Shown one piece after another: positions 17,621-33,354 of a stretch of 64,000 nt of DNA; the first letter of the stretch is position 1, and each line of letters opens with the position of its first letter. Source of the DNA: Flavobacteriales bacterium. Lineage in GTDB: Bacteria > Bacteroidota > Bacteroidia > Flavobacteriales_F > PHOS-HE28. The translations under genes and the position numbers were made by a program. A model generated the notes under the pieces. It was not told the origin of the DNA and ran no database searches. It saw only the letters and a list, made by a program, of their open reading frames with translations. The DNA lies in contig JADJAA010000001.1 of NCBI GenBank assembly GCA_016704485.1, positions 1,554,824 to 1,618,823 of the forward strand, given 5' to 3'.

Positions 17621-20600
17621 TCAAGCACTGCGCTCACCCGGCTGTGCGTTCCCTTGCACCCACTCCACTACCGAGATGATCTTATCCTGATCATTCTCAT
17701 TCGGGAATAGGCCGAAGATCCCTTCTTGGTGTAGGTCCGTGAACGTTGAACCCGGCTCTGCGAGCATGCGTTTGTCGATCACGCCGTTCACCGTGAGGTG
17801 CCGAATGATGGAATCGATGAAGTGGATCTGCGTAGCACTGAAGATGGAGCCGGACAAGAATTCGCCGAAGGCTGCTTTTGCTGCGCCTTCATCAAGGCCG
17901 ATGATGCTGCGAATGAAATAGCCTAGTGGCCGTTCCTCGCCAAGTTCCTTCATCAAAGCCTCCTTCGTGCCGCGTTCGTCTCCATCGAACAGGATGCGTT
18001 CCAGTTCCACTAGCTCAGCGGTCGTGATCGGCTCATTGGTGTATAGTTTGTGAATGGTAAGCTGGTGTTTGTGCGAGCGGATGAACTCCTCTACACGCAT
18101 CCGATAGCTACGCATGGTGTAGCTACCTGGCATGGAGATGATATCCTCACCCTCGCTCACCAACTCATCTCTCAGGTCCGAGTATACCACTTTGCGTTCC
18201 TCGCGCGGTATCAAGCGCACTAGATCGCGCAATTGTTTTCGTGTGAATTCCAAGGCTTCCAGACCGAACACAGCGGCTCGTTGTTGTTGATCATTTGCGA
18301 CATCAAGAACTGCTTTGATCGCTGGATACCGCTCCTGCACTACGGGAATGTTGGAGAGCCGGGCAAGCTGTGTGGCGGTTGAGGCCAACGTGCGGAACAG
18401 GCGATCTACTGACGGCGCCTCTTGGGCCACAGCAATTTCCAGATCGAGCATAAGTAGGTCAAATCGTTTGGCCAGCTCGTCCTTGTCCGGTAGTTCGATC
18501 AAGTGACCAACGGTCTCGAACAGATCACTGATCCCGCTTTTTGATAACGCATTCCATGCGGTACGTTCACGGTAGTGATCGAGCACACGTTGCGCAGGAC
18601 GAATGCGCACGGTGTGCCGCAATTCCCAAAGTGCCTGGACCCAACTATGCGCACTATTCAAAAGCTCAACGCGTAGTGCTTGATCTTTTGGTACCTGATG
18701 GGCTGGTTCACGCAGTTGTTCACTAAGTAGGATAGTTGCTTCAAAGATCCGTTGCGATAGGCTGGGGGAGCGCACAGGTTCAATGCCTTCCGGCCGCAGG
18801 TTGAAGAAGCTGTAGTTGCCACAGAGATCGAAGATCCTGAAGTTCTCCTTGTGCTGGCCGGGACCGAACAGATCCGGGCATAAGCGTGTGCCGCGGCCAA
18901 CCATTTGCCAGAACTTGGACTTGCTATAGACCGGTTTAAAGAACACCAAGTTCACGATCTCAGGAATATCAATACCCGTATCCAACATATCCACACTCAC
19001 GGCGATCTGTGGATACCGGTCCTTATCACTGAAATTATCTATGATGCTCTGGGAGTATTGCTCCTTACTGTGTACCACCGACATGAAATGCCCACCGTAC
19101 TGCGGGAACTGATCTTCAAAACGGTTCTGTATGGCCCGGGCATGGTCTATGTTCCTTGCAAAGACAACGGTCTTGCCCAGCTTCTCACCACCTTCCACTT
19201 TGATCCCGTTCTCCATCACATAGGCCAACACCTGATCGATGGTGTTCGAGTTGAAGAGCCAGTTATTGATCGCGGGCGCTCCGATCTCTTCGGGTATATT
19301 CCCTTGGTCGTCCCGGAAGGTCTCTTCGTAATGTGTCCTATCGCTCTCACTCAGGTCATCGTAGCGGATACCGCGTTGCAGAAAGCCGAAGTCCACTGCT
19401 TTGCCAATGGGCGGCACCAGAAAACGATCGGCTACGGCCTGCCCTAATTCATAGAACGATGTCGGGTTATGCTCTTCGCAATCGAACAAGGCATAGGTAT
19501 CCCGATCCCCTTGGTCGTGTGGTGTTGCAGTAAGGCCGACCAACAAGGAATCGAAATAGGTGAAAATAGCACCGTACCGATCGTACACTGAGCGATGCGC
19601 CTCATCCACAATGATCAGATCGAAGTGACCGACACCGAAGGTCTTCACATCATCACTCCGCACTTGGTCCACGCGGTTCATTACCGTGGGGTAGGTGCTG
19701 AAGACCACCCGTGCGCTTTCATCATAGCGCTGTTTGGTGAGATCCAATGTGGTAACATTCGGCAGGTTCTTCTCAAAGGCCCGTTTTGCCTGTGTGACCA
19801 AGGCATTGCGATCAGCGAGAAAGAGCACACGCTTCGCCCAATTCGCTTTCAGTAGAAGGTCCACTAACGCGGCAACGGTACGCGTCTTGCCAGCCCCAGT
19901 GGCCATTACGATCAATGCTTTTCGCTTAAGACCGCGCATGCCATCTTCATCCACCCAACTTTCTGCAACCCGCTTGATCGCTTGATGTTGGTAATAGCGT
20001 TCCACGATCTGCTCATCGATCGGCACATGCCGAATGTTCACACGACCGATACGCCGATCAACGACCCGTTGCAATTCGTCCCGCGTGTAAATGCCCTGTA
20101 CAGCGCGTGGACCATAAAAGGTGTCATCCCAGATCCACGTATCGAAACCGTTGCTATAGAATATCACCGGGCGCTGTCCGGTCATGCGTTCCAGGCAATC
20201 AGCGTAAAGGCTTGCTTGCACACGGCCTTGTTGGGCATCGTGGGTGGTGCGCTTGGCCTCTACTACGGCCAGCGGTTTACCATCTGCACCCCAGAGCACG
20301 TAATCTACCTTGCCGTTGCCGTTGGGATTGGTGCTCAATGGCATCCCTGTTACCGGGTATTCGATCACGTTGGATGCGGCAGGGTCCCAGCCTGCTTCGC
20401 GCAACAGTTCATCAATGAAGAGTAACCGTGTATCCGCCTCCGAATATTCAGAAGCAGGTATGGGTATGTTCTCATGGCGCTCCTTGCGCTCCTGGATCGC
20501 TGCCAGGCGTTCTGCCAATATCTGCTTTTCTCCTTCTAATTTCAACCGTTGCTCGCGCTCGGTCTCCATCGCTACACGTTGCGCTTCATAACGCTCCTGT

Positions 20601-21079
20601 AACTGTTGAAGCTCCGCGCTGTTCGGAACTTCCTTCACTTTCACTTGTACTATGAGTGCCTCCTCTTGGAATGTTCCTACCTCGATGTCGAATGCGCTGT
20701 ACGTACGACCCATCCATTTCAAGAACCGGAACAAGAGGCGCAATGAGGCTACGCTCTGGCTCTCCACCACCTTCTTATCATGCGCAGCGGCATTGCCGGT
20801 ACGCCGGATGTACTGCAGGTCGATGTAGATGGGTGGTGGTATCAGTACCCGGAAGGACCGTTCATCCATCAACGCGCTCAACTGGCTGTTGTAAGGGCGC
20901 TGTAGGTCACTGTCGTTATCATACAGCCAGTGCACGGTACGTTCCAACGCACGGCGGGCATACACGGCAGAGGCGATCGGTGCGGCCAAGGCATACCGCT
21001 CCGCGTCCATGGCCTCCTTCGCAATGGAGGGCCACTCTTCAACGAGGAAGCGGAAGTTGCTCGGGGTGCTCAACGACAT
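17621..21079 (-). CDS. hsdR: Type I restriction enzyme R subunit (EcoEI/COG4096-like, with EcoEI_R_C C-terminal domain)
   Basis: 1152 aa. The N-terminus is SNFRFLVEEWPSIAKEA. The PD-(D/E)XK nuclease motif is GKVDYVLWGADGKPLAVVEAKRT. The SF2 helicase motifs are VMATGAGKTRT and LIIVDEAHRS. A long C-terminal helical domain is present. Confidence 0.8.
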   Translation of the reverse strand: MSLSTPSNFRFLVEEWPSIAKEAMDAERYALAAPIASAVYARRALERTVHWLYDNDSDLQRPYNSQLSALMDERSFRVLIPPPIYIDLQYIRRTGNAAAHDKKVVESQSVASLRLLFRFLKWMGRTYSAFDIEVGTFQEEALIVQVKVKEVPNSAELQQLQERYEAQRVAMETEREQRLKLEGEKQILAERLAAIQERKERHENIPIPASEYSEADTRLLFIDELLREAGWDPAASNVIEYPVTGMPLSTNPNGNGKVDYVLWGADGKPLAVVEAKRTTHDAQQGRVQASLYADCLERMTGQRPVIFYSNGFDTWIWDDTFYGPRAVQGIYTRDELQRVVDRRIGRVNIRHVPIDEQIVERYYQHQAIKRVAESWVDEDGMRGLKRKALIVMATGAGKTRTVAALVDLLLKANWAKRVLFLADRNALVTQAKRAFEKNLPNVTTLDLTKQRYDESARVVFSTYPTVMNRVDQVRSDDVKTFGVGHFDLIIVDEAHRSVYDRYGAIFTYFDSLLVGLTATPHDQGDRDTYALFDCEEHNPTSFYELGQAVADRFLVPPIGKAVDFGFLQRGIRYDDLSESDRTHYEETFRDDQGNIPEEIGAPAINNWLFNSNTIDQVLAYVMENGIKVEGGEKLGKTVVFARNIDHARAIQNRFEDQFPQYGGHFMSVVHSKEQYSQSIIDNFSDKDRYPQIAVSVDMLDTGIDIPEIVNLVFFKPVYSKSKFWQMVGRGTRLCPDLFGPGQHKENFRIFDLCGNYSFFNLRPEGIEPVRSPSLSQRIFEATILLSEQLREPAHQVPKDQALRVELLNSAHSWVQALWELRHTVRIRPAQRVLDHYRERTAWNALSKSGISDLFETVGHLIELPDKDELAKRFDLLMLDLEIAVAQEAPSVDRLFRTLASTATQLARLSNIPVVQERYPAIKAVLDVANDQQQRAAVFGLEALEFTRKQLRDLVRLIPREERKVVYSDLRDELVSEGEDIISMPGSYTMRSYRMRVEEFIRSHKHQLTIHKLYTNEPITTAELVELERILFDGDERGTKEALMKELGEERPLGYFIRSIIGLDEGAAKAAFGEFLSGSIFSATQIHFIDSIIRHLTVNGVIDKRMLAEPGSTFTDLHQEGIFGLFPNENDQDKIISVVEWVQGNAQPGERSA

Positions 21080-22063: not shown

Positions 22064-23375
22064 GATGGGCTTGTTGGGTTTGCCGTGGCCCACCATCCAG
22101 GTCATTGGCATTATTGACAAGATCCTCCTTCTATGGCCTATGTATGTGCTTATCATGGTCTTGTGGCGCATGCTAGGTGGGTTATCAAGTCGGCGCGCCT
22201 TTTGGCTCACCTTCGGTGTCTTGTTCGTTTCGGCAACCAGCGCTGGCCGCTTGTACTTTTTCGGGAAGATCTCCTGGTCATTTTCGGAGATCACGGGGGA
22301 ATACAGCATAGATGCAGGTTTGTCCGATGATCAGTGGCCACTTTTGGTCGCACTGGTGGTTGGTGCGGTACTGCGCTATTCCATAGCGCTCTGGTTCGCG
22401 ATCGAATTGATCCGACTTGGCATTCGCCTGGTGCGTAAGAAGGGTTTCGGACGTTGGATCGGGGCAGGGGCGCTTGTGTCCAGTCTGTTGAGTTTCCTCT
22501 TGACGTGCTTCGGCCTGGTCACTGAAATACCATCTACGACATGGCTCACACTTTCCGATTATCTCGCCTATGTTGCTGTGCCGGTTTCAGTCGTCATTTA
22601 TCTGGCCGTCACTGCCGCTCAAAACAACAAGCTGGTAGCGCGTCAACGGGATGATCTTGATCGCGAGGTGGACGACCGTACCGCCGAACTTGTAGCGGAG
22701 AAACAAGCGGTGTTGCGCGAGAAAGAACGCAGCGATGAACTACTCCTCAACATCCTGCCATCCGAAGTGGCGGAAGAACTAAAAGCCAACGGTTCGGCAA
22801 AGGCGCGGGACTTCGATCCCGCCACCATCCTGTTCACCGACTTCAAAGGCTTCACGGAGCTATCCGTGCAATTAAGTGCTCAGGATCTGGTGGCCGAGAT
22901 CAATACGTGTTTCGAGGCGTTCGATGGGATAATTTCCCGGTACGGTGTGGAGAAGATCAAGACCATTGGCGATGCTTACATGGCGGCAGGTGGCGTGCCT
23001 GATCCTCTGCGCGGATCACCGGCAGGTGTTGTAGAGGCCGCGTTGGAGATGCAGGAATTCATGGTCAGGTACAAAGCGCAACGAACAGCCTTGAACAAAC
23101 CGGCCTTCGAGATGCGTCTCGGTGTTCACACCGGCCCAGTGGTGGCGGGCATCGTGGGTGTGAAGAAGTTCCAGTACGATATCTGGGGCGACACCGTGAA
23201 CACGGCCAGCCGCATGGAGAGCAATAGCGAAGTGGGCCAAGTAAACATCTCGCAGAGCACCTATGAACTGGTGAAGAACGTGCCGGGACTTGCCTTCACA
23301 TCGCGAGGCAAAATACCAGTGAAAGGGAAAGGAGAGCTGGAAATGTACTTCGTAAAGAGAGGGCCGGTCGCATAG
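21999..23375 (+). CDS. 7TMR-DISM_7TM membrane domain + class III adenylate/guanylate cyclase catalytic domain
   Basis: There are six hydrophobic helices, followed by a coiled-coil and the cyclase core FTDFKGFTELS...KTIGDAYMAAGG...GVHTGPVVAGIVG...WGDTVNTASRMES. Confidence 0.75.
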   Translation: MVATGPAGLRYRIRVCAKLTSEMGLLGLPWPTIQVIGIIDKILLLWPMYVLIMVLWRMLGGLSSRRAFWLTFGVLFVSATSAGRLYFFGKISWSFSEITGEYSIDAGLSDDQWPLLVALVVGAVLRYSIALWFAIELIRLGIRLVRKKGFGRWIGAGALVSSLLSFLLTCFGLVTEIPSTTWLTLSDYLAYVAVPVSVVIYLAVTAAQNNKLVARQRDDLDREVDDRTAELVAEKQAVLREKERSDELLLNILPSEVAEELKANGSAKARDFDPATILFTDFKGFTELSVQLSAQDLVAEINTCFEAFDGIISRYGVEKIKTIGDAYMAAGGVPDPLRGSPAGVVEAALEMQEFMVRYKAQRTALNKPAFEMRLGVHTGPVVAGIVGVKKFQYDIWGDTVNTASRMESNSEVGQVNISQSTYELVKNVPGLAFTSRGKIPVKGKGELEMYFVKRGPVA

Positions 23376-23382
23376 CCATTTC

Positions 23383-23470
23383 CGATCCCTACTCCCCCCA
23401 AAACGCCCCCTGCAGCAAAAGCCCGAACAAGTCCTCGCTCCGGCGTAGGTTCGCAGTGGAACACCGGTAG
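23383..23470. repeat. Direct repeat copy 1 (~60-80 bp, ~80% identical to copy 2 at 24305..24395) flanking the 23477..24274 gene
   Basis: CCCCCCAAAACGCCCCCTGCAGCAAAAGCCCGAACAAGTCCTCGCTCCGGCGTAGG here versus CCCCCCGGAACGCCCCCTGCAACAAACTCCCGAACAAGCCCTCGCTCTGGTGTAAG at 24319. Confidence 0.6.
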
Positions 23471-23476
23471 TGCTGT

Positions 23477-24274
23477 CTATCCACTCCACTTCACGATATC
23501 CGCCACTACCGTCTTGTAGCTCAAGCCACGCAGCCGTTTCACCACCACGATGCGGGTATCTCCGTACTGCTCTGCGCGTTCGACCGACGAGTCAGTTGGT
23601 CTACTTTCCTTGATCCCCAGCCCCGTGCGAAAATGCGACCACCACGTATCGTTGGTGAGCACCACACAGAGTTTCGGCTGTAATTCCTCCAGTTCCATGC
23701 GCACCAGATCCACGCATTCGGGTCGTTGCAGGATGCGCTCGTCCACATCCGGATTGGCCACTTCGCCACGGTTCTGCGGTGCGATCTTGTAGAGGTTGGA
23801 CCATACCAGTTGACGGTTCCATTCCCACGCGTCCTCATTTGTGATGCCGTGCCGAACCTGCATCAGCTTGACCGTGGCCTGCCAGAAGAACGATGACCAA
23901 GCGCGGTAGTTCTTCTCCCGTTCGGTATACCAGGCTTGTTCTTCCGGGCTACACTTGTTCAAGGTAGTGTTCGTCCACAACACGTTCACCCAATCCAACG
24001 GGGAGTGGTCTTTGAAGGGTTCGTTGGAGTAGCGCTTGCTCTCTTCTATGCGGCCCCTCGGTACTGCCTTCGTGAAGTCCCACTCCGGGTGCCAACCACC
24101 CACGGCCTGGCCGTAGACCAGCACATCAACCGGTTCATTCGTTCGCGTACCGATGCTCGGATAGAAGTCTGTGAAGTGGGTGCGTTGCGGAAAGGTGCGC
24201 GCCAGTCGACGTTGAAAGGCTTCCAAGTGTTGCTGGTAGGCGGCGTTATAGGTTGGTGAGAGGGTGCGATACAT
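23477..24274 (-). CDS. Hypothetical protein (cassette-like gene flanked by direct repeats, between hsdS and the cyclase gene)
   Basis: ORF 23477..24451(-). The first 59 codons read through repeat copy 2 and look non-coding (Arg/Gly/Ser-rich). Probable start MYRTLSPTYNAAYQQHLEAF at 24274. No family recognised. Confidence 0.5.
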   Translation of the reverse strand: MYRTLSPTYNAAYQQHLEAFQRRLARTFPQRTHFTDFYPSIGTRTNEPVDVLVYGQAVGGWHPEWDFTKAVPRGRIEESKRYSNEPFKDHSPLDWVNVLWTNTTLNKCSPEEQAWYTEREKNYRAWSSFFWQATVKLMQVRHGITNEDAWEWNRQLVWSNLYKIAPQNRGEVANPDVDERILQRPECVDLVRMELEELQPKLCVVLTNDTWWSHFRTGLGIKESRPTDSSVERAEQYGDTRIVVVKRLRGLSYKTVVADIVKWSG

Positions 24275-24302
24275 TATGTCCGTGCTGCGTGATCCTCTTC
24301 CG

Positions 24303-25448
24303 TTAGTTCCCCAACTCCCCCCGGAACGCCCCCTGCAACAAACTCCCGAACAAGCCCTCGCTCTGGTGTAAGCTTGCTGCAATGCAGGTGCGCTGCTTTT
24401 GGATGTTATGGAGTAATGTTCCGAACCGTTCCTGCGCTTTGAGTGGAACAAGTGGAATACGCATTCTTCGGATCTCTTCTGTTGTGATATTCTTGAAGAT
24501 GGCTCCCACCGACTTATCGCTGACCCCTACGGCGAGCATATTCAGATAATGGTAAATGAACCTCAGGTCAAAGCCTTTGTCAAAGTCACGAAATCCTGCA
24601 AATCCATCGTGTATGCAACAGTCGACCATCAGGATCGCTGGCAGGCCTGGCTTCCCACTTACAGCCATCACCAAGTCACCACGTTTCATTGGACGACTGC
24701 GCTGTGAGCCTTCAATCGTGAGTGAATCGATCTGAGGTGTCACATACATCCCATCACGGGTCAAGTCTGCAACCATTAGGCGAGGCACGGGACCTCCAAA
24801 GTATCGCGCATCACCCTGTGGTCTTGGACTGCTCCCACGGACGACCTCACACAACGAACCCAAGTCTACAGTTTCCCACCCCCTCTCATTCCGCACCGGA
24901 TCCCCGAACAGCTCCAAGAACAGGCTCTTGGCAAGTTGGTCGTAAACCGCCAAGGTTCGCCGGTCGTTGGCCACCAGCGCCTGCGCCTTGTCCAAGATCG
25001 CCGCGATGCGACGCTGCGTGGGGAGGGCGGGCGGAGCAAAAGGTAAGCTGCGGATATCTTCTATCTTGAAGCCTTTCACCGTCGCTCCGTTTCCACGCGA
25101 AATGAAGTAATTCTCTTTCGCAAATAGAAAGTAATAGAGATAGGTCTGGTCAACCTTGCCATTTATAACAAGCGCCTTCAGATCCTGATTGAATGCCATC
25201 GGCACGTTCGTGATCGACATGCGCCCAAGAGCCATGCGTGTTGCAATCAATAACGTTCCGGCTGGAACTATCTGTGTCGCACAATTATCTACACCGCGTT
25301 CAGTGATCGACTCGTACGTCTCCGAAATATGCTTTGATGTAAGATCCTTCACCGTAGCCCATGGGACATCACCTTCCCAATAGCCCTCGATATCGCGATT
25401 AGGAGTACCACCACCAAGTATCTGGATATAATTGCCCAGCACGCTCAT
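24303..25448 (-). CDS. hsdS: Type I restriction-modification specificity subunit (two TRDs)
   Basis: 381 aa. Two target-recognition-domain halves are each followed by the conserved HsdS helix LPTQRRIAAILDKAQAL. Its start overlaps the hsdM stop by 4 nt (25445..25448). Confidence 0.8.
   Translation of the reverse strand: MSVLGNYIQILGGGTPNRDIEGYWEGDVPWATVKDLTSKHISETYESITERGVDNCATQIVPAGTLLIATRMALGRMSITNVPMAFNQDLKALVINGKVDQTYLYYFLFAKENYFISRGNGATVKGFKIEDIRSLPFAPPALPTQRRIAAILDKAQALVANDRRTLAVYDQLAKSLFLELFGDPVRNERGWETVDLGSLCEVVRGSSPRPQGDARYFGGPVPRLMVADLTRDGMYVTPQIDSLTIEGSQRSRPMKRGDLVMAVSGKPGLPAILMVDCCIHDGFAGFRDFDKGFDLRFIYHYLNMLAVGVSDKSVGAIFKNITTEEIRRMRIPLVPLKAQERFGTLLHNIQKQRTCIAASLHQSEGLFGSLLQGAFRGELGN
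24305..24395. repeat. Direct repeat copy 2 (partner of 23383..23470)
   Basis: See copy 1. It lies immediately downstream of the hsdS stop (24303) and upstream of the proposed start at 24274. Confidence 0.6.
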
Positions 25449-27004
25449 TTCAACAACGCCTCCAATTCGTCCAACAATTTCACACGGTCGGCGGCCAATT
25501 GGCGCAGGCCGGGTTCTCCCTTTTTGCCGTTGATCAGCTCGGCGGGCGTGGCATACTTCACTTGCTCGTACACCACCTCCTTGTAGCGGTTTATGCTGAG
25601 GTCCCAGTTGTTGGCCTTCAAGTCCGCAAAGGGCACCAGAAAGCTCTGGTCGGTTCGTGCACGTTTGCTTTCACCTTTCGCACCGAAGCGCGCTAGGATG
25701 TCGGCGATGTTGCTTTTCTCGTGCAGCGTTTTCGCTCCCTTGGTGGGCTCGGTGTATTGGAGTTCAAGCTGTTCTTCGGTGAGTTGCGGTGTGCGCTTAT
25801 CATCCAACGAGAAACCGTCGGCACGCATGTCGTAGAACCACACGTTGTCGGTACCGCCGCTATCGGTCTTGGTAAAGATCAGCACCGCGGTGCTCACCCC
25901 TGCATAGGGTTTGAATACGCCGCCGGGCATGCTGATCACCGCTTGCAATTGCTGGCGTTCGATCAGTTCCTGCCGCAGTTGCTTGTGCGCCTTGCTGCTG
26001 CCGAAGAGCACACCATCGGGCACGATCACAGCTGCGCGGCCACCTGTGCGGAGCATGCGCAGGATCAGACCTAGGAAGAGCAACTCGGTCTTCTTGCTGC
26101 TCACTGTGCGCAAGATCGCAGGGTCCACAGCGTCGTGGTCCAAGCTGCCTTTGAACGGCGGGTTCGCTAACACCAGCGAGAAGCGCTCACTGATGTGGCC
26201 TTGCTCTTTGCTAAGCGCATCCTGCCCGATCAGTTGCGGGTGCTCAATGCCGTGCAACATCATGTTCATGGCACCAATGCGCAACATGCTGGAGTCGAAC
26301 TCGACCCCGGTGAAGAGGTTGGTGTTGTAATGCTCGCGGAACTTCTTCTCGTGGAAGCTGTCCGGGTGCGTGCGCCGTATCTCTTCGCTTGCCGCCACCA
26401 AGAAACCGCACGTGCCGGCACTGGGATCGCAGATGGTATCGGTGGGTTGCGGAACCATCAGTTGCACCATCATGCGGATGATGTGGCGCGGTGTGCGGAA
26501 CTGGCCGTTGCGTCCTGCCGTAGCGATCTTGCCCAGCAGGTATTCATAGAGGTCGCCCTTGGTGTCGCGGTCGGCCATGTCCAGCGCGGCGATCATTTGC
26601 ACGGCGCGGTCCAGCAACCGCGCGGAGGGGATCATGAACGTAGCACCCTTCATGTGCTCACTGAACACGCTGCCCTCGCGCCCCATCTGCTTCATGAAAT
26701 CGAAGACCGTGAGGTTATCGTTCTTCGCATCAGGCCGCGTAAAGAGCGCGAACAATGTATCCGGGTCCTTGTCCTTGAAACTGCTCCACCGCAACGCCTT
26801 GTACTTGGGCGGGTAAATGGGATCCTTGATGGGCCCACCGAGCTTGGCGCTCTGCTTCTCTTTGGTGGTCTGGATCTCATCCATCCGGCGCAAAAAGAGC
26901 AAGTAGGTGATCTGTTCGATAACCGTGAGCGGATTGGCGATGCCGCCAGTCCAGAAGGCCTCCCAGAGGCGGTCGACGTCGGAGCGGAGTGTTCCGTTTA
27001 TCAT
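25445..27004 (-). CDS. hsdM: Type I restriction-modification N6-adenine DNA methyltransferase subunit
   Basis: 519 aa. It has the HsdM N-terminal domain, GQFRTPRHIIRMMVQL, motif I DPSAGTCGFL, motif IV LANPPFKG, and the C-terminus AAVIVPDGVLFGSS...AVISMPGGVF. Confidence 0.85.
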   Translation of the reverse strand: MINGTLRSDVDRLWEAFWTGGIANPLTVIEQITYLLFLRRMDEIQTTKEKQSAKLGGPIKDPIYPPKYKALRWSSFKDKDPDTLFALFTRPDAKNDNLTVFDFMKQMGREGSVFSEHMKGATFMIPSARLLDRAVQMIAALDMADRDTKGDLYEYLLGKIATAGRNGQFRTPRHIIRMMVQLMVPQPTDTICDPSAGTCGFLVAASEEIRRTHPDSFHEKKFREHYNTNLFTGVEFDSSMLRIGAMNMMLHGIEHPQLIGQDALSKEQGHISERFSLVLANPPFKGSLDHDAVDPAILRTVSSKKTELLFLGLILRMLRTGGRAAVIVPDGVLFGSSKAHKQLRQELIERQQLQAVISMPGGVFKPYAGVSTAVLIFTKTDSGGTDNVWFYDMRADGFSLDDKRTPQLTEEQLELQYTEPTKGAKTLHEKSNIADILARFGAKGESKRARTDQSFLVPFADLKANNWDLSINRYKEVVYEQVKYATPAELINGKKGEPGLRQLAADRVKLLDELEALLK

Positions 27005-27017
27005 GGGGTGAAGATGG

Positions 27018-28226
27018 TCAATGTTTGGTGATGGTGGTAAATTCCCATTTAGACTGTCCGTTCAGTTCGACTTGTTTGACTTGGCCGGAAACGAGGTCGC
27101 CATCCACAAGGCTGTGTAGTTTTATCAGATCCTTGTTGATGTAGGCATCGCCAGCATGGGCGTAGGTGTTATCGTTGCGTTTCTTGACCACGACGCGGCC
27201 CAGTTCTTTGGTATCACCGTCGAGTAGGGGAACTCCGTCGCTGCCTACCGCTTCCTCGTGTAGCCAGGTTCGGTTCGCCTTGGGGTCTGGATACTTTGCT
27301 GCGAACTTCTTGAACCAGACCAACACGTCCATGAGCTGGAACACGATGGTGCTCAAGAGGTAAGGCGTTACACCATGCTCGTGTAGTGCTTCGAGATTGT
27401 CCAAGCTGTAATTGGAATCCTCAGCGGTCTCGTCCGCATGCGAGCTTTCGCTGGTTACCCGCAGAATATTGTCCAGTGCATCGGCAACGATCCGGGGCAT
27501 CATCGGGCGGTCACACTTCAAGGCCACCGTGGCCGAAGAACGGCTCGGATAAAGCACGCGCTCGCCCCGCAGGAACAGTGCTGACAAGCGTTGGTTGACC
27601 CTCGGCTTTACAAGGACATCGGGTAGTAACCCGTGCCGATGCGCGGCATAGAAGAAGTGCTCCACTACCTGACGCAAAGGATTCATGAATAAGCGATCAC
27701 TACCGGACTTGTCCCCGCGATCCACAAAGCGCAATGCGTCCATGAACATAGGGTCGGCAACGGCATCCAAATAAGGAACTTGGAGCACTGCGAACACATC
27801 GGCATACCTATCACGAAGCGCTTGCTCGTTGCTTCGATCAACAAGGCTCTGTAGTTCCGCGTATAGGTCCTTCTCGTTCCCTTTCAAGTACCGCCGCTCA
27901 TCACGACGGTTCTTTGTTGCACCTTCGTCAAAGCCGGTATTGATCACATACGGAATATGAATGTTCGCTCCTTTCCATTGGTCCAGATCCCTGCGGGCTT
28001 CATGCAGGTGGTCGATGTCCTCGGTGGGTGAATGTTCATCCACCTGCCCTCTGGCATCGAGGATCAAGGCTTTGAAACGCTTTTCTCGGATCGGTTCCTT
28101 AGCCTCGGCCCAGGTCTTGAACCAAGTCACTTCGAAACCGTGCGCGACCGCCTTAGCAATTTGGGCTTTGGCGTATGCTTCATCGTCATCTACTAAGGCG
28201 ATCGGAACCAGGTCAAACAGTGTCAT
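27018..28226 (-). CDS. Response-regulator receiver (REC) domain protein with an uncharacterised ~280-aa C-terminal (effector?) domain
   Basis: ORF 27018..28289(-). Start at 28226 gives MTLFDLVPIALVDDDEAYAKAQIAKAVAHGFEVTWFKTWAEAKEPIREKRFKALILDARGQ, with an acidic pocket DDD and a phospho-acceptor-like D in ILDARG. The remainder has no recognisable family. Its start overlaps the stop of the upstream kinase gene by 14 nt. Confidence 0.65.
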   Translation of the reverse strand: MTLFDLVPIALVDDDEAYAKAQIAKAVAHGFEVTWFKTWAEAKEPIREKRFKALILDARGQVDEHSPTEDIDHLHEARRDLDQWKGANIHIPYVINTGFDEGATKNRRDERRYLKGNEKDLYAELQSLVDRSNEQALRDRYADVFAVLQVPYLDAVADPMFMDALRFVDRGDKSGSDRLFMNPLRQVVEHFFYAAHRHGLLPDVLVKPRVNQRLSALFLRGERVLYPSRSSATVALKCDRPMMPRIVADALDNILRVTSESSHADETAEDSNYSLDNLEALHEHGVTPYLLSTIVFQLMDVLVWFKKFAAKYPDPKANRTWLHEEAVGSDGVPLLDGDTKELGRVVVKKRNDNTYAHAGDAYINKDLIKLHSLVDGDLVSGQVKQVELNGQSKWEFTTITKH

Positions 28227-30909
28227 GCGAAATGGGAAGGTCAATGGTGAAGTGGACAAACATTTGAGTGGATACAGCTTCCCGGTCAAATGGTATCCAA
28301 TGATTCTCGTCTATACGTTGATCGCGTTCAAAACTCGATCGGTACTTGTCATCGCTCACTGGCAGGTTACCCGACACGAACTTTCCGCCGTGGTTGGCAA
28401 TGATCCGATCGATCAGATAGCCGCCTATGCCATTGCCCTTTTTCATGTCCAGACGCTTGCCAAAGGTGATGAAGTGCTCATGGGTAAAACCTTCCGGAAA
28501 GGGTTTGCCGTTGTTCTCGATGGTGATAACCAATCGCGTTCGTTGAGGTTCAATACGCGTTGATACCCTCACCCGTACGACCAATTGTTCCTGATCCGAT
28601 CGAAGGCCGTGTTTGGCCATATTGATGAACAAGTTCTGGATGACAAGTGCGAACTGTTGTTGATCGACATGTGCGATCACTCCTTCAGTGGTTTCTAGTC
28701 CAGCTTCACATTCGAAAATGACCATAAGCGCTTTCACCTGGTCGGCAAGTCCGCGCAATTCCGTTCGGAACAGTCGACGAAGGTCGATGGGCACTGGTCT
28801 TAGACTCTCCTTATCTGATCGGATCACCGCATTGATCAATTGAAAGAGACCGCGCATGCGATCCAATCCACTATTCATTGTATCTAGGGCGGTGGTGATC
28901 GTAGACTTTTCAACTGGGCCCAAACTGTTGAGTACTGCATGGATCTCGGCCATGGGTTGCTCCAGAAGCGCCACCACCGGGCGGAAGCTGTGCTCCACTG
29001 CACCAAGGATCTGCCACTCATCAGTGGAGAGGCCATGCTGTTTTTCCTGCCTAGCGATCTCCTCCTTCTTCGCCAATAGAATGGATTCCTTCCGTTCGCG
29101 AACAATGCGCAGTTGATCCTTGAGTTCGGGTAAGCGAACCCGAATTCTCAGAACGTCTGCTTTGGCTATGAAAGCGATCGTACTTCCTTGGTGGTATGCG
29201 TCGAGCTGATCTTGGATCGTGGGCGTTCTTAGTTCTGTTGCGAGGTATTCGGTATTAGCACGAGCCGCATCCACACGGAACATGAATACATTGCTTCCCA
29301 CGGCGATCGGTCCATCTACCGGGTCGAATAAGGTCGGCTTCAACTTTCCGCCCACCCGTGCAAGTAGCAGTGCTGGCACATCCAATCTCTTCAGTCCCTT
29401 CTTGACAGAACCGGTTTCATGTTGCCCATCACGCGCCGTGCGCCTCATGTCGAGGACATCCGTTGAAAGCTCGGAGACCTGGAAGAGCGGCAGACCGGCG
29501 AGGTCGCCCATGGAGAGGATATCGTCCGAAAGCACGGTGCCGAGTTCAACCACGTCCACACCATCCGCTTCGGCCACGATATGGGCTTGTTGAAGCAGGC
29601 TGGCAAACCGACTCATGCTCCAAGACACATGCTCGTCGGAACGGATGTCAGAAACCTTCACGTCCAAAACACCTTGTAAGGTATAAGTGCTATCCAACGC
29701 CTGCAGCACGCTGCTAACATCGAGTGTTATTTCGGATCGCGTCTTGTATGTGACATGCAAACCCGCATCCACGAATCGGACAGGCGCATTCGTTGGCCGT
29801 GATCCATTCAAAACAATGATCGAGGTCTTTATCCCTGAGTAGGGTGTGAAGGATCCTGCTGGCAACGAGATCACTGCTTCGAGCAACCCTAGGTCAAGAA
29901 TCTGTTTGCGTAGATGCGCTCTGTTGATGCCGAACAACATACTCTCGGGCACAAGGATCACCGCCTTCCCCTCGGGTGCAAGCCGCTTGAGGATCTGGTT
30001 GATCGCTATCTCATAGGGTTCTATCGCGCGTAGCCTTCCTTCCTCTTTCACTCGACCACCGAAAGGTGGTGCACTAATGCAATGCGTATACTTCTTGTTG
30101 GAAGCACCGGGTGCTGATGGTTCGTTCAAGGCGGCGTTCAGGTCTGCCCCGAGAATACGTGCTTGCAGCGTATTGAAGAAGAATGCGAATTGGTTGAAGA
30201 ATACCGCGTCGAGCTTTACAGAATGTGGCGCACGCGCTGCGAGCACTGCTGGCAATACGCTCGCATCCGCAGCTGGGTCGAATACCTCTTCCACGTCTCC
30301 GAGCAGCCGCGCCATAAGCATTGCAACGGACCATGGCGTACAGAACTGGCCCATGTGACTATCGCGCAAGAGGAGGCTACGCATTTCTTCCACATACTCG
30401 ATCGGTTCCAAACCCGCTGATGCCATGAGAAAAAGCTCAGTTTGTACTGGGCTTGTTGCCAGTGCGCCGCCATTTTTAAGAAGATACGAATGCTGCTCCC
30501 CAAAGTCCTTAAACTCCTCTGCCAATTCATTCAAGGTGGACCATAATCCTTCTCCTCTTTGAGCGATCGTAGGCAACACTCCTGCTGGGCGCACGGCCAA
30601 GGCATAAATGAGTGCCAGCTCCAAGCCAACGGTCTGCGCGAAGGGCATGGATCGTAGCGCATTGCGCAATTCCCATGCGTGGGCCTGAAAAAAACGGACC
30701 CGGTTCAACATACGTTCTGGATCCAACTGTAAACTACCGTCATCGGATATACTAACACGCCCACCAGACAACTCCACCTCAGCAAGCAAGCTCGATGGCT
30801 CAACGTCCTTCTGGCTCAATAAGACCTTGACGATATTACAGACACCCTCCAAAGTATCCGAGCCGTTCTTCAGGCGAAGGGCACATATTATGGCGTCTAT
30901 CAGTTTCAT
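28213..30909 (-). CDS. Fusion protein: HsdM-like N6-adenine MTase domain (degenerate catalytic motifs) + HsdS-like target-recognition domain + HisKA/HATPase_c histidine kinase
   Basis: 898 aa. It has an HsdM N-terminal helical domain. Motif X is GQFCTPWSVAMLMARLL. Motif I is degenerate, VFDPAADASVLP (no GxGxF). Motif IV is CISAPPFGG, APPF instead of NPPF. The HsdM C-terminal region is AVILVPESMLFGINRAHLRKQILDLGLLEAVISLPAGSFTPYSGIKTSIIVL. The HsdS-like conserved helix is VRLPELKDQLRIVRERKESI. The H-box is AVEHSFRPVVALL. The GHKL ATPase region is LFINMAKHG (N-box), ...IENNGKPFPEGF...GNGIGGYLIDRIIANHGGK (G1/G2). Confidence 0.75.
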   Translation of the reverse strand: MKLIDAIICALRLKNGSDTLEGVCNIVKVLLSQKDVEPSSLLAEVELSGGRVSISDDGSLQLDPERMLNRVRFFQAHAWELRNALRSMPFAQTVGLELALIYALAVRPAGVLPTIAQRGEGLWSTLNELAEEFKDFGEQHSYLLKNGGALATSPVQTELFLMASAGLEPIEYVEEMRSLLLRDSHMGQFCTPWSVAMLMARLLGDVEEVFDPAADASVLPAVLAARAPHSVKLDAVFFNQFAFFFNTLQARILGADLNAALNEPSAPGASNKKYTHCISAPPFGGRVKEEGRLRAIEPYEIAINQILKRLAPEGKAVILVPESMLFGINRAHLRKQILDLGLLEAVISLPAGSFTPYSGIKTSIIVLNGSRPTNAPVRFVDAGLHVTYKTRSEITLDVSSVLQALDSTYTLQGVLDVKVSDIRSDEHVSWSMSRFASLLQQAHIVAEADGVDVVELGTVLSDDILSMGDLAGLPLFQVSELSTDVLDMRRTARDGQHETGSVKKGLKRLDVPALLLARVGGKLKPTLFDPVDGPIAVGSNVFMFRVDAARANTEYLATELRTPTIQDQLDAYHQGSTIAFIAKADVLRIRVRLPELKDQLRIVRERKESILLAKKEEIARQEKQHGLSTDEWQILGAVEHSFRPVVALLEQPMAEIHAVLNSLGPVEKSTITTALDTMNSGLDRMRGLFQLINAVIRSDKESLRPVPIDLRRLFRTELRGLADQVKALMVIFECEAGLETTEGVIAHVDQQQFALVIQNLFINMAKHGLRSDQEQLVVRVRVSTRIEPQRTRLVITIENNGKPFPEGFTHEHFITFGKRLDMKKGNGIGGYLIDRIIANHGGKFVSGNLPVSDDKYRSSFERDQRIDENHWIPFDREAVSTQMFVHFTIDLPISHDTV

Positions 30910-30971: not shown

Positions 30972-32234
30972 TCAAGCGACTTTCTCCAGTCGGTTTGTCG
31001 GCAGAAGTTGGGCAGCCATACGATCCATGACCTCCCATTCCGGACGTGTGTACGAGTTGCTCTCCGTGACCACCGGGATCCTGAATTCGCCCATGGCATC
31101 CTCGCGCATAGCCCATTGATCCTTCTGGTCGTAGAGCTTTGTTCCGGGCAAAAGCATCAGCGGCCAAGCCTTAACGTCCCTGCAGCCTTTGGATAAGAGG
31201 TGGTCGATACTACGCTGGAAACTTTCCAAGGTCTGTCCGGGCAACCCGTAGATCAAACTCACTTCGAAAGGAATCTCGCGCTCCACAAGCTGTTCAATAG
31301 CAGCATCGACAAGATCCATCCGATTGGCGCGGTCAATTTTCTTGGACACTGCATGGTCCGTGGTCTGCAACCCGAACTCCAAGTGGAAGTTGGCTTGCGT
31401 ACAAAGGTCCAGGAATGCATTAACCTGTTGGCCTCGGATATTCTCAAAGCGCGATTGCAGGGTGAAGGTGGAGCGCGTACGGAGTTGAACGATCTCTTGC
31501 ATTATATCCAGGCACTCCTTCCCAGCGTTGAAGATGGGGTCGAGTATGTTCACGCGTTGCACACGATGTTCAGTGAGAAATGCTAACTCTTTAAAGACTT
31601 TATCCAGTGGGTGCTTATGCACGCGGTGAGTGGCGAGGTCGCGGTGTGCGCAAAATGAACACCGGTAGGGGCAGCCGCGTTTGGTCTCCAACCGTACCAT
31701 ACCGGCTCCCATTGGTACAGGCAATTCGCCAGTGAGATACGGTGAGGCCAGTTGTGTGAAGTCCACTGGTACGTTCACGAACACGGGTTCGTCGGCATCG
31801 AGATGGTCCGTCAATTCGGCAAAGGCTTGTTCGGCTTGTCCGGAGATGAAGACCTGGCAATCCGGATACCGACGCAGCAATTCTGCTCGGTTCCCGTAGG
31901 TGACTTGATACCCTCCGAGGACCACCTTGCCAAGGAACCCAAGACGACGAAGCAATGCGATGATGCCATTGGTGAGGTACTCGTTCCAGATGTAAGCCGA
32001 GAGCGCGATGGCGTTAAAGCGGCTCACATCAAGCGCCGCGAGTTGCACTTCGAATTGCTCGGGTGTGGCCGTGCCGCCGTGTTCGAGCATGTTGATCGAG
32101 AGGTGTTCCACGTGCATCTGTCCACGCAGCCGTTCATTACTCCGTTGGTGTGCCAAGAGAGATGCGATCGCCAAGGGCTTGGTGATCTCACCGTGCCGGA
32201 TCAGGTCGAAGGATATGATGAGCGTGTTCGTCAT
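30972..32234 (-). CDS. B12-binding domain radical SAM protein
   Basis: ORF 30972..32282(-). There is an N-terminal cobalamin-binding-like Rossmann region. The radical SAM cluster motif is RGCPYRCSFCAH (CxxxCxxC). It sits 62 bp upstream of the MTase-kinase gene, which is co-oriented. Confidence 0.75.
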   Translation of the reverse strand: MTNTLIISFDLIRHGEITKPLAIASLLAHQRSNERLRGQMHVEHLSINMLEHGGTATPEQFEVQLAALDVSRFNAIALSAYIWNEYLTNGIIALLRRLGFLGKVVLGGYQVTYGNRAELLRRYPDCQVFISGQAEQAFAELTDHLDADEPVFVNVPVDFTQLASPYLTGELPVPMGAGMVRLETKRGCPYRCSFCAHRDLATHRVHKHPLDKVFKELAFLTEHRVQRVNILDPIFNAGKECLDIMQEIVQLRTRSTFTLQSRFENIRGQQVNAFLDLCTQANFHLEFGLQTTDHAVSKKIDRANRMDLVDAAIEQLVEREIPFEVSLIYGLPGQTLESFQRSIDHLLSKGCRDVKAWPLMLLPGTKLYDQKDQWAMREDAMGEFRIPVVTESNSYTRPEWEVMDRMAAQLLPTNRLEKVA

Positions 32235-32343
32235 TGGTCCTCGCCACCAAGGGTCTATATGGTTGGATAATCGCTCAACCAACGAACTTCCCTATGGCAA
32301 CGGACCAAAAGTCCCGGTCACCTGTGCAGTCTATCTGCACAGT

Positions 32344-33354
32344 TCATTTCGCGTAGTTCTTCTTCATTTCCATCACCCGCAAAAGCAGCGCTTGGCGTAG
32401 TTCTTCCGGCGCAATAACCTGTAGCCCTTCTCCATAAGATAACAACAAGGCTTGTAGCTCGTAGTTCAGCTTCACTTCTAAACGAATAGTCGCGCCGCCG
32501 TCTTTTCTCTTCACTACTTTCTGCGAACCGTGTATAGGCTTTGACTCCAAATAAGGCCAAAGTCTATCCGTGACTTGGATCTTGACAACAACAGCTTCTT
32601 GATCCGCAGGTACACTTACACCAACAACATCCTCAAAATACTCCGTGAAATCCACCTCATCGTTCGGTATGTATTTCACCTTACTGGGTACAATATCCCG
32701 GATCCGGTCCAAGGCCATATTGACAATACGCCCCTCTTCCTCAAGACCAAAAACAAACCAACGGTTGTTATACTGTTTCAAGTAATACGGATGGAGCAAC
32801 ACAATGCTAGGCGCATTTTGCTTGAAGCCTTGGTAAGATATTTCCAAGGCTTGCTCATTGATGATCGAATGAAATAATGTGGTAATGTGCTCGGCACCTT
32901 TCAAATACGGGTTCTGCTCAAACTCGATGACCTGAGCAGCCCCTTGTTTCAGCCCGAAACCAGCTTCCAACCGAGCAACTAATTCATCTACCCATTCAAA
33001 CTGCGGCATGCCCTTAAATCGGCTCAGCGTTAAGAGCGCCTCCTTCAATTGTTCCGCTTCGCTCTCGTTCAGCGGTCGCTTGTTGATAGAGAATTCAAGG
33101 TCACTGTACCGGTAAAAAGTACGCTTTCCGTCTTTGTGTTTCTCCAGCGGGATAGCCCATCCTTGTTCGCTCTCCATGTACTTGATGTCCTCGAAAACTT
33201 GGCGGCGGCTGATGCTTGCACCTGCTCCGGTGAACTCCTCCAACGCCATGTTGCAAGCTTCCATCAGGTCTTCGATGAAATACTCGCGCCCACGGTTCGC
33301 AAAGCAACGGTCCATTGTCTGATAGCGAATAAGGGCATTCTTATTTACGGGCAT
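32344..33354 (-). CDS. WYL-domain transcriptional regulator (N-terminal wHTH + WYL + C-terminal WCX-like)
   Basis: 336 aa. The WYL signature is LLHPYYLKQYNNRWFVFGL, with an N-terminal HTH-like region. It has BrxR/CapW-like architecture. It is the first gene of the co-oriented block 33354->24303. Confidence 0.75.
   Translation of the reverse strand: MPVNKNALIRYQTMDRCFANRGREYFIEDLMEACNMALEEFTGAGASISRRQVFEDIKYMESEQGWAIPLEKHKDGKRTFYRYSDLEFSINKRPLNESEAEQLKEALLTLSRFKGMPQFEWVDELVARLEAGFGLKQGAAQVIEFEQNPYLKGAEHITTLFHSIINEQALEISYQGFKQNAPSIVLLHPYYLKQYNNRWFVFGLEEEGRIVNMALDRIRDIVPSKVKYIPNDEVDFTEYFEDVVGVSVPADQEAVVVKIQVTDRLWPYLESKPIHGSQKVVKRKDGGATIRLEVKLNYELQALLLSYGEGLQVIAPEELRQALLLRVMEMKKNYAK

What the first reader, a model, noticed from the sequence alone, without database searches (positions are those of the whole stretch)
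28213..30909. The MTase domain of the kinase fusion has degenerate catalytic motifs (APPF instead of NPPF; no GxG in motif I)
The bona fide hsdM next door shows canonical DPSAGTCGFL and NPPF. The fusion protein instead has VFDPAADASVLP and CISAPPFGG, while retaining motif X (GQFCTP) and the HsdM C-terminal scaffold. Loss of the SAM-binding glycine loop and of the (N/D/S) in the (N/D/S)PP(F/Y/W) motif predicts a methylation-dead domain that still binds DNA. That is what one would expect of a domain co-opted as a sensor, for example of the methylation state of the cognate Type I site.
Basis: partly seen in the sequence, partly recalled or inferred. Interest (0 to 1): 0.6.

Follow-up and report, generated by a model that had tools for sequence, protein, structure and literature searches.

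The report
Dead methylase domain wired to kinase
A gene annotated as a DNA methylase encodes a histidine kinase whose sensor half looks like a complete but catalytically dead Type I methyltransferase core; with the response-regulator gene next to it, it forms an apparently undescribed signalling module built into Type I restriction operons of Bacteroidota.

Summary
ORF 28213-30909(-) has GQFCTP, VFDPAADASVLP and CISAPPFGG exactly where the adjacent HsdM has GQFRTP, ICDPSAGTCGFL and LANPPFKG, and no canonical motif occurs elsewhere in it. The degeneracy is family-wide: 19/19 relatives have Asp at the first motif I glycine and none has N/D before PPF.

The protein reads as a winged-helix-like N-terminus, an HsdM-like helical region, a dead N6-MTase fold, one HsdS-type TRD, then DHp and CA kinase domains with invariant H-, N- and G2-box residues. 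The overlapping downstream gene encodes a response regulator: a REC domain with all phospho-acceptor residues, an unannotated helical domain with invariant R/E/H, and an S1/CSD fold.

The cassette fusion / partner / hsdM / hsdS recurs in all 10 loci inspected. At least 1137 cluster representatives match the family profile at E<=1e-30. Most of the 153 aligned have degenerate MTase motifs.

Its example (reading the cognate Type I site) is not: the fused TRD stays 68-70% identical where the HsdS TRDs are 17-24% identical.

The signal sensed and the effector chemistry are unresolved. The module resembles Detocs in logic only. I found no published description.

The parts
28213..30909 (-). Fusion gene, 898 aa: MTase-like sensor + TRD + histidine kinase
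   Evidence: ORF and translation. Pfam N6_Mtase 5.7e-15 and HATPase_c 1.7e-08. AF2 model, mean pLDDT 79.
30370..30909 (-). Residues 1-180: small winged-helix-like N-terminus (about 1-62) plus an HsdM_N-like helical region. This is the fastest-evolving part of the protein.
   Evidence: hhalign aligns family columns 29-450 with HsdM 23-454. Secondary structure from the model. Identity to relatives is 28-38%, against 40-65% for the MTase fold. A weak HARE-HTH hit occurs only in the distant member P0132.
29590..30369 (-). Residues 181-440: gamma-class N6-MTase fold with degenerate motifs I and IV, plus an HsdM-like C-terminal segment
   Evidence: Best fold hits are 7eew_A and HsdM chains.
30334..30351 (-). 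Motif X, GQFCTP (retained)
30250..30285 (-). Degenerate motif I, VFDPAADASVLP. D215 replaces the first Gly and V218 the second.
   Evidence: D215 is present in 19/19 close relatives.
30055..30081 (-). Degenerate motif IV, CISAPPFGG. A280 replaces the catalytic Asn.
   Evidence: 0/19 close relatives have N/D here. The PP is nearly invariant across 153 superfamily representatives.
29125..29547 (-). Residues 455-595: single HsdS-type target recognition domain
   Evidence: PADLOC Specificity_I hits at 472-640. Family profile matches HsdS chains 5ybb_D and 3okg_A at 6.6e-14. Pfam Methylase_S in 11/19 members.
28810..29124 (-). Residues 596-700: long conserved-region helix running into the DHp hairpin. 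The phospho-acceptor H640 is encoded at 28990-28992.
   Evidence: Helices 596-625, 629-662 and 665-697. H640 is invariant in 153/153 and aligns with the EnvZ H-box histidine.
28216..28809 (-). Residues 701-898: CA (HATPase_c) domain, with N box N763, a G1 box that reads N799-N-G801, and G2 box G827-I-G829-G
27018..28226 (-). Partner response regulator, 402 aa; overlaps the fusion gene by 14 nt. REC (about residues 1-120; D13, D14, D57, T97, K115) + helical domain (about 121-320; invariant R185, E189, S262-H263) + S1/CSD-like barrel (about 321-402).
25445..27004 (-). Canonical hsdM (DPSAGTCGFL, NPPF)
   Evidence: Pfam N6_Mtase 1.6e-57 and HsdM_N; PADLOC MTase_I 1.7e-168.
24303..25448 (-). hsdS with two TRDs
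   Evidence: Methylase_S 2.7e-31, two stretches; PADLOC Specificity_I.
17621..21079 (-). hsdR (DUF4145 + ResIII/helicase + EcoEI_R_C)
30972..32282 (-). B12-binding radical SAM gene directly upstream of the fusion (PADLOC candidate PDC-M51A)
   Evidence: Pfam Radical_SAM and B12-binding. PDC-M51A 6.6e-117. Directly upstream in 6/6 close-family loci and 0/4 distant loci.
32344..33354 (-). WYL-WCX (BrxR-like) regulator at the head of the cassette
   Evidence: Pfam WYL and WCX. Present upstream in 8 of the 9 loci where the contig reaches that far.

Best explanation
The gene encodes a cytoplasmic sensor histidine kinase, not a methyltransferase.

Its input module is a whole Type I methyltransferase core fused in one chain: an HsdM-like N-terminal region, a gamma-class N6-MTase fold, one HsdS-type TRD and the conserved helix. 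The SAM-binding loop and the catalytic Asn have been lost. The fold, the PP(F) loop and the TRD have been kept.

Inferred mechanism:
1. Because histidine kinases dimerise through the DHp bundle, the dimer would mimic an M2S1 methylase clamp.
2. Binding of a DNA-like ligand in that clamp shifts the helix that runs from the TRD into the DHp and switches autophosphorylation of H640. The ligand is most likely DNA with a flipped base at a site unrelated to the neighbouring system's specificity. A DNA-mimic anti-restriction protein is less likely.
3. The phosphoryl group passes to D57 of the translationally coupled partner.
4. The partner's helical R/E/H domain and S1/CSD fold act as the output. This is probably a second-line defence or growth-arrest response, possibly directed at RNA.

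The module is hard-wired between a WYL regulator and hsdM-hsdS-(cargo)-hsdR.

Shown here: the dead motifs, the domain order, the intact kinase and receiver residues, the conserved synteny, and the HK-RR co-variation.
Inferred: dimeric clamp geometry, ligand, direction of switching, and effector chemistry.
For: (1) Motifs I and IV are degenerate in 19/19 close relatives, while the homology to HsdM is unambiguous. Motif I forms the SAM site and NPP(F/Y/W) forms the catalytic slot in gamma-MTases (PMC3874165).

(2) Across 153 superfamily representatives the PP is nearly invariant (135 and 149 of 153) and F is present in 120. The preceding residue is N in only 54 and D in 6. Only 12/153 keep both the glycines and N/D.

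(3) A TRD is fused in cis. The best structural match is 7eew_A, titled an 'intact MTase' of V. vulnificus crystallised with the DNA mimic Ocr.

(4) Kinase residues: H640, N763, G801, G827 and G829 are invariant in 153/153, and the H box aligns with that of EnvZ.

(6) DHp identity tracks partner identity across loci (78/80, 69/70, 39/53, 15/24%). In the mosaic locus L005 the MTase-like part is 65% identical but the kinase and partner were swapped together.

(7) The order fusion / partner / hsdM / hsdS holds in all 10 loci inspected, including distant members.

(8) There is precedent for kinase to REC-effector signalling as a phage defence (Detocs, 10.1101/2023.01.24.525353).
Against: - No biochemical data exist. 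Loss of activity is inferred from sequence.
- 12/153 superfamily members keep canonical-looking motifs, so the ancestral or some extant forms may still methylate.
- The partner's helical domain has no detectable relative of known function. A HEPN/DUF4145 relationship is not supported (hhalign probability 2.2%). An effector role, as opposed to a regulatory role, is therefore a guess.
- The G1 box has Asn where kinases have Asp (152/153).
- The motif VIII aromatic residue is Leu in most superfamily members, which weakens the flipped-base argument.
- The dimeric clamp model was not computed.
- A defence role rests only on context.
Confidence: 0.6

Rival explanations
1. First reader's specific idea. 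The dead domain reads the methylation state of the cognate Type I recognition site of the neighbouring HsdMS and reports unmethylated (foreign or newly replicated) sites.
For: It is encoded in the same operon as hsdM and hsdS in all loci seen. The PP(F) pocket is retained. Loss of the Asn that contacts N6 could alter discrimination of m6A (inference).
Against: The fused TRD does not co-vary with HsdS: 68-70% identity against 17-24% for the HsdS TRDs (window vs L002/L004). In L004 the HsdM (78%) and HsdS conserved region (84%) are close to the window's, so it is the TRDs, which set specificity, that have diverged. L002 has a different Type I family altogether. No fused TRD resembles its own HsdS TRDs.
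Confidence: 0.1
2. Guard or decoy for anti-restriction. The dead M2S-like dimer binds DNA-mimic proteins (Ocr/ArdA-type) that phages and plasmids use to block Type I enzymes. Binding turns on the kinase and hence a back-up response. In logic this resembles PrrC with EcoprrI, or PARIS sensing Ocr (both from my own knowledge).
For: Neither catalysis nor matching sequence specificity is needed, which fits. The module is portable between unrelated Type I families. The closest solved structure is an M-S fusion crystallised with Ocr (7eew_A). The N-terminal region evolves fastest, as expected for a surface in an arms race.
Against: Near-invariance of the PP(F) base-pocket loop across the superfamily is not explained by binding a protein mimic, unless the loop is purely structural. 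There is no direct evidence.
Confidence: 0.18
3. Housekeeping regulator of the R-M system. The kinase-regulator pair tunes expression or activity of hsdMSR (establishment or restriction alleviation), for example through the partner's S1/CSD domain binding the operon mRNA. It would not trigger a toxic effector.
For: The pair lies immediately upstream of hsdM in every locus. The validated Ambrosia system is proposed to use a two-component pair to control R-M-like genes (10.1101/2025.09.30.679545). About 295-aa partners lack the S1/CSD domain.
Against: The partner has no recognisable DNA-binding output domain. Invariant R/E/H residues in its helical domain look more like an active site than a binding surface. 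A WYL regulator is already present in most loci.
Confidence: 0.12
4. It is still an active, unusual DNA methyltransferase, as the public annotation 'N-6 DNA methylase' implies.
For: N6_Mtase is the only annotation in NCBI. The fold and motifs X and V-VIII are recognisable.
Against: The first motif I glycine is Asp in 19/19 relatives, and N/D is absent from motif IV in 19/19. No alternative motif occurs elsewhere. From memory, not checked here: Gly-to-Asp in EcoKI motif I abolished AdoMet binding and NPPF substitutions abolished methylation (Willcock, Dryden and Murray 1994).
Confidence: 0.03

Closest known systems
Type I methyltransferase core M2S1 (HsdM + HsdS); single-chain M-S 'intact MTase' of Vibrio vulnificus YJ016 (PDB 7EEW)
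   Same: Same order of parts: HsdM_N-like region, gamma-class N6-MTase fold, HsdM C-terminal segment, TRD and conserved helix. 7eew_A is the best hit by both sequence profile (6.3e-23) and fold (3.2e-18). It also has a non-canonical motif IV (SGVPFG).
   Different: Here motif I has lost its glycines and motif IV its Asn. The conserved helix continues into a DHp/CA histidine kinase. 7EEW keeps G-x-G in motif I (VYDPAMGTGGV) and has no kinase.
Detocs (DtcA kinase, DtcB buffer receiver, DtcC receiver-effector)
   Same: Logic only: a cytoplasmic sensor kinase passes phosphate to a receiver domain fused to a non-transcriptional output domain, in a defence context.
   Different: The sensor is a dead MTase/TRD instead of TPR repeats. 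No stand-alone buffer receiver was seen. The output is an unannotated helical domain with or without S1/CSD, instead of a PNP nucleosidase. The module is embedded in a Type I R-M operon. Neither the kinase part nor the partner has any PADLOC hit; whether PADLOC 2.0.0 holds Detocs models was not checked.
Ambrosia (AbrR XRE, AbrA N6-MTase, AbrB kinase, AbrC REC-wHTH, AbrD HNH)
   Same: It combines R-M-type genes with a two-component pair in one validated defence cluster.
   Different: In Ambrosia the MTase and kinase are separate proteins, the regulator has a wHTH output, and the nuclease is HNH. Here the MTase-like domain is fused to the kinase and is dead, and a complete canonical Type I system lies beside it. 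No sequence comparison was possible.
MADS (mad1-8)
   Same: A methylation-associated multi-gene system in which PADLOC identified a methylase, a specificity subunit and a kinase. There are weak mad2/mad5 model hits here.
   Different: The mad2/mad5 hits are far weaker than the Type I models for the same proteins. NCBIfam MADS2 scores 21.7 bits against a cut-off of 720. None of the 10 window proteins scanned hit a model for the mandatory mad6-8 genes.
PrrC anticodon nuclease embedded in EcoprrI (own knowledge, not tested here)
   Same: A latent second-line effector encoded inside a Type I R-M operon.
   Different: PrrC is held directly by the R-M complex and released by a phage peptide. Here the coupling would be by His-Asp phosphotransfer from a dedicated pseudo-enzyme sensor.

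Membership tests
Gamma-class N6-adenine DNA methyltransferase (HsdM, Pfam N6_Mtase) | Homologous Rossmann-type MTase fold with the HsdM N- and C-terminal segments | tested here: met
   hhalign 99.6%, E 6.6e-24 over 383 columns. Pfam N6_Mtase 5.7e-15, but only profile positions 166-260. Foldseek hits to HsdM chains.
Gamma-class N6-adenine DNA methyltransferase (HsdM, Pfam N6_Mtase) | Motif I glycine-rich SAM-binding loop (DPxxGxxG/GxG) | tested here: not met
   DPAADASV: D215 and V218 stand at the glycine positions. D215 is present in 19/19 relatives.
Gamma-class N6-adenine DNA methyltransferase (HsdM, Pfam N6_Mtase) | Motif IV (N/D)PP(F/Y/W) | tested here: not met
   The motif reads APPF. 0/19 relatives have N/D, and there is no such motif elsewhere in the protein.
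Gamma-class N6-adenine DNA methyltransferase (HsdM, Pfam N6_Mtase) | SAM binding and methyl transfer to DNA | not testable with these tools
   Needs ITC or cross-linking and a methylation assay.
Two-component sensor histidine kinase (DHp + HATPase_c) | H-box histidine on a helical hairpin | tested here: met
   VEHSFRP aligns with VSHDLRNP of 8u4x and VSHDLRTP of EnvZ. H640 is present in 153/153. Helices 629-662 and 665-697 form the hairpin.
Two-component sensor histidine kinase (DHp + HATPase_c) | N, G1 and G2 boxes of the ATP-binding domain | tested here: met
   N763, G801, G827 and G829 are invariant. The G1 box is atypical, with N799 in place of Asp in 152/153. HATPase_c scores 1.7e-08.
Two-component sensor histidine kinase (DHp + HATPase_c) | Cognate response regulator with phospho-acceptor Asp | tested here: met
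Two-component sensor histidine kinase (DHp + HATPase_c) | Autophosphorylation and phosphotransfer | not testable with these tools
   Needs an assay with radiolabelled ATP or Phos-tag gels.
Detocs | DtcA/DtcB/DtcC triad: TPR sensor kinase, stand-alone buffer receiver, receiver fused to a PNP or other known effector | tested here: not met
   There is no TPR. No stand-alone receiver gene was called within the cassette in any locus. The partner's output has no Pfam or PADLOC family. The kinase part has no PADLOC hit.
MADS | Mandatory mad6, mad7 and mad8 genes, with mad2/mad5 equivalogs | tested here: not met
   Only weak mad2/mad5 hits, all below the Type I models. NCBIfam MADS2 scores 21.7 bits against a cut-off of 720.
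[quoted passage not shown] | hsdM, hsdS and hsdR present with canonical motifs | tested here: met
HEPN / DUF4145-like nuclease (for the partner's helical domain) | Four-helix HEPN fold with an Rx4-6H motif | tested here: inconclusive
   One of 20 members hits DUF4145 at E 0.082. hhalign against the DUF4145 of three HsdR N-termini gives probability 2.2%. RVTSESSH (Rx6H) is present in the window copy, but the Arg is not conserved; only H263 is.

The most novel reading that the evidence does not exclude
A complete but catalytically dead Type I methyltransferase core (M + TRD) serves as the ligand-binding input domain of a histidine kinase. It would be a DNA-sensing (or DNA-mimic-sensing) two-component immune switch that backs up Type I restriction by phosphorylating a receiver-effector with a new R/E/H helical domain. 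It is a large family (at least 1137 50%-identity cluster representatives; every named member is from Bacteroidota), is mis-annotated as 'N-6 DNA methylase', and is absent from current defence-system catalogues.
Probability: 0.35. Interest if true: 0.8.

Novelty: new variant of a known kind. Interest (0 to 1): 0.66.

Why it matters
If correct, this would be a histidine kinase whose sensor is a pseudo-methyltransferase clamp. I found no report of such a kinase. It would also be a second architecture, after Detocs, in which bacterial immunity uses His-Asp phosphotransfer to drive a non-transcriptional output.

It gives a testable handle on how Type I R-M operons add a signalling layer, whether that layer responds to DNA, base modification or anti-restriction proteins. 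It also defines a new receiver-linked output domain.

Practically, hundreds to thousands of genes annotated 'N-6 DNA methylase' or 'type I restriction enzyme M protein' are probably not methylases. That matters for methylome and REBASE-type predictions.

Tried and rejected
- MADS membership: rejected.
- Detocs or other catalogued systems: the kinase part, the N-terminal part and six partner proteins give no meaningful PADLOC hit.
- Function of the partner's helical domain:
  - Pfam, NCBIfam and PADLOC give nothing.
  - A profile search finds only REC-fused hypothetical proteins of about 295 or 400 aa.
  - Foldseek against viral proteins gives receivers and weak SSB-like OB folds.
  - hhalign against DUF4145 gives probability 2.2%.
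- Motifs II and III: the stretch between motifs I and IV aligns unreliably, so I make no claim about the motif II acidic residue.
- The motif VIII aromatic residue is Phe here but Leu in most of the superfamily, so I do not use it as strong evidence.
- The genome-contig scan returned only one locus because the peptide pattern was specific to the close family.
- The sigma-70 promoter scan found fewer sites than in shuffles. From my own knowledge, Bacteroidota use a different promoter type.
- Literature: 10 searches found no description of an MTase-like-TRD-kinase fusion. The paper behind 7EEW is not in the library. Willcock et al. 1994 could not be retrieved and is cited from memory only.

Full report
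**Observation**

The ORF at 28213-30909 on the minus strand is intact and encodes 898 aa. It contains three motifs:
- GQFCTP, residues 187-192, nt 30334-30351
- VFDPAADASVLP, residues 209-220, nt 30250-30285
- CISAPPFGG, residues 277-285, nt 30055-30081

The adjacent HsdM (25445-27004) has GQFRTP, ICDPSAGTCGFL and LANPPFKG. BLASTP of the two proteins (E 1e-15) places the motifs opposite each other. So does a profile-profile comparison of the 19-member family with an HsdM alignment (hhalign 99.6%, E 6.6e-24, 383 columns). D215 stands at the first motif I glycine, V218 at the second, and A280 at the catalytic Asn.

No other [NDS]PP[FYW] exists in the protein or its relatives. The only G-x-G in the N-terminal half lies in the helical HsdM_N-like region.

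In gamma-class MTases motif I forms the SAM site. NPP(F/Y/W) forms the slot into which the target adenine flips (PMC3874165).

**The degeneracy is a family trait**

A search of 5.8 billion proteins found only about 20 full-length close relatives. The scan of 185,579 species genomes, made with a peptide pattern specific to the close family, found one locus. All named sources are Flavobacteriales MAGs, annotated 'N-6 DNA methylase'.
- In all 19 aligned relatives D215 is invariant, and the residue before PPF is A (15), I, V, M or K, never N or D.
- The rest of the fold stays conserved (for example GRAVVLVPESMLF and AVISLPxGxFxPYAGVKTSILV).

This is a maintained pseudo-enzyme, not a decaying gene.

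**Full anatomy of the protein**

| Residues | Part | Evidence |
|---|---|---|
| 1-180 | Small winged-helix-like unit plus HsdM_N-like helices | |
| 181-440 | MTase fold with the HsdM C-terminal segment | |
| 455-595 | One HsdS-type TRD: PADLOC Specificity_I hits; profile hits to HsdS chains at 6.6e-14; Pfam Methylase_S in 11/19 members | |
| 596-700 | A long helix running into a DHp hairpin | |
| 701-898 | HATPase_c | |

H640 aligns with the EnvZ H-box histidine. The N and G2 boxes are canonical. The G1 box has Asn where kinases have Asp. The best structural match of the whole model is 7eew_A, titled an 'intact MTase' of Vibrio vulnificus crystallised with the DNA mimic Ocr, followed by HsdM chains and HK853.

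**The partner**

The downstream ORF, starting at the Met at 28226, overlaps the kinase gene by 14 nt.
- D13, D14, D57 and K115 are invariant and T97 nearly so.
- It continues into an all-helical domain with invariant R185, E189 and S262-H263.
- In the ~400-aa forms it ends in an S1/CSD-like barrel (PF22707 in 14/20 members).
- The helical domain occurs only in such REC-fused hypothetical proteins; every hit that carries an organism name is from Bacteroidota. It matches no Pfam, NCBIfam or PADLOC family.
- A HEPN/DUF4145 relationship is suggestive by eye but unsupported statistically.

**Context**

The order fusion / partner / hsdM / hsdS holds in all ten loci inspected.
- A WYL-WCX regulator lies upstream in 8 of 9 loci that reach that far.
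- DUF2130, listed as a PD-(D/E)XK family in PMC3424549, is often present.
- A variable cargo slot precedes hsdR.
- In the close family a B12-binding radical SAM gene (PADLOC candidate PDC-M51A, 6.6e-117) always sits directly upstream. It is absent in the four distant loci.
- BrxR-type WYL regulators are known to head defence loci, including Type I systems (PMC9122601).

The window itself is a dense defence island.

**A large superfamily**

A profile search of 1.84 billion cluster representatives found 1137 with E<=1e-30. The listed hits of about 800-1000 aa match from the MTase motif IV region through the kinase. In 153 aligned representatives:

| Feature | Count (of 153) |
|---|---|
| H640, N763, G801, G827, G829 | invariant |
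| PP of motif IV | 135 and 149 |
| F of motif IV | 120 |
| Residue before PP is N / D | 54 / 6 |
| Both motif I glycines | 27 |
| Complete canonical set | 12 |

The input domain of this superfamily is therefore generally non-catalytic. The window's clade is an extreme case.

Identity to the window's proteins, by domain:

| Locus | Fused TRD | HsdS TRDs | HsdM | DHp | Partner | MTase-like |
|---|---|---|---|---|---|---|
| L002 | 70% | 18% | 23% (different Type I family) | 78% | 80% | 65% |
| L004 | 68% | 17-24% | 78% | 69% | 70% | 49% |
| L001 | 49% | 22% | 82% | 39% | 53% | 40% |
| L005 | 32% | 23-36% | 87% | 15% | 24% | 65% |

- The fused TRD does not follow the specificity of the neighbouring R-M system.
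- In none of 8 loci does the fused TRD resemble its own HsdS more than foreign ones.
- 'Sensor of the cognate Type I site' is therefore not supported.
- DHp identity tracks partner identity. Together with the mosaic locus L005, this marks a cognate kinase-regulator pair.

**Most likely mechanism (inference)**

- The kinase dimer would reproduce an M2S1-like clamp.
- A DNA-like ligand bound in the clamp would shift the helix that links the TRD to the DHp and switch phosphorylation of H640.
- The phosphate would go to D57 of the partner, whose helical/S1-CSD output then acts.
- I favour DNA with a flipped base as the ligand, because the PP(F) loop is kept although the Asn is free to vary.
- A DNA-mimic decoy role and a purely regulatory role remain open.
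- Detocs and Ambrosia show that two-component signalling is used in phage defence. Neither shares this architecture.
- MADS membership is rejected.

**Verdict**

- Observation: confirmed.
- Interpretation: partly supported.
- The thing is an apparently undescribed sensor-kinase / response-regulator module with a pseudo-methyltransferase input, embedded in Type I R-M operons.
- Ten literature searches found no description. I could not search exhaustively.

Noticed in passing
window 30972-32282 (-): A B12-binding radical SAM protein (PADLOC candidate PDC-M51A, 6.6e-117; weak KedN5-type C-methyltransferase similarity) lies directly upstream of the fusion in 6/6 close-family loci and in 0/4 distant loci. 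Its role beside a dead N6-MTase is unexplained.
   Followed up: partly
window 21302-24300, between hsdS and hsdR: This is a variable cargo slot. Here it holds a 458-aa class III nucleotidyl cyclase (Guanylate_cyc 7e-56, PycC-like PADLOC hits, weak 4TM N-terminus) on the + strand, plus two unannotated ORFs (21302-22063 on +; about 23477-24300 on -). Other loci carry GmrSD, Xre/RES toxin-antitoxin pairs, or NERD/UvrD or PIF1-like helicases in the same slot.
   Followed up: partly
window 28498-28518 (-), residues 798-804 of the fusion: The kinase G1 box reads N-N-G. Asn replaces the canonical Asp in 152/153 superfamily members, an atypical ATP-lid signature for this family.
   Followed up: partly
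L005 4174-7952: A mosaic relative. Its MTase-like part is 65% identical to the window's, but its TRD, DHp, CA and partner are only 15-32% identical. This implies recombination at the MTase/TRD junction that swapped the kinase and regulator together.
   Followed up: partly
window 10664-17534 (-): Downstream of hsdR lie a GmrSD_N protein (15720-17534) and a 1610-aa protein that combines a DEAD/Helicase_C module with a UvrD-type helicase module (10664-15496). Further upstream (36435-38822) is a 795-aa AAA_21/SMC_N ATPase. The window is a dense defence island.
   Followed up: no
PDB 7eew_A (alignment): The solved 'intact MTase' of V. vulnificus YJ016 has SGVPFG where NPPF is expected, while keeping G-x-G in motif I. 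It may itself be catalytically unusual. It is the closest solved relative of the fusion's sensor half.
   Followed up: no
L009 1-2563 and 10001-12748: The distant member P0132 keeps canonical-looking DPFAGDG and NPPF, has a weak HARE-HTH hit at its N-terminus, and lies next to Tn7-like tnsA/tnsB genes. Some superfamily members may still be active methylases, and the cassette may travel on transposons.
   Followed up: no
NCBI MAG copies of the fusion: In several Flavobacteriales MAGs the same gene is split into two ORFs (337+575 aa, 487+411 aa). These are probably assembly frameshifts rather than real pseudogenes, since 16 contigs carry the intact 898-aa form.
   Followed up: no
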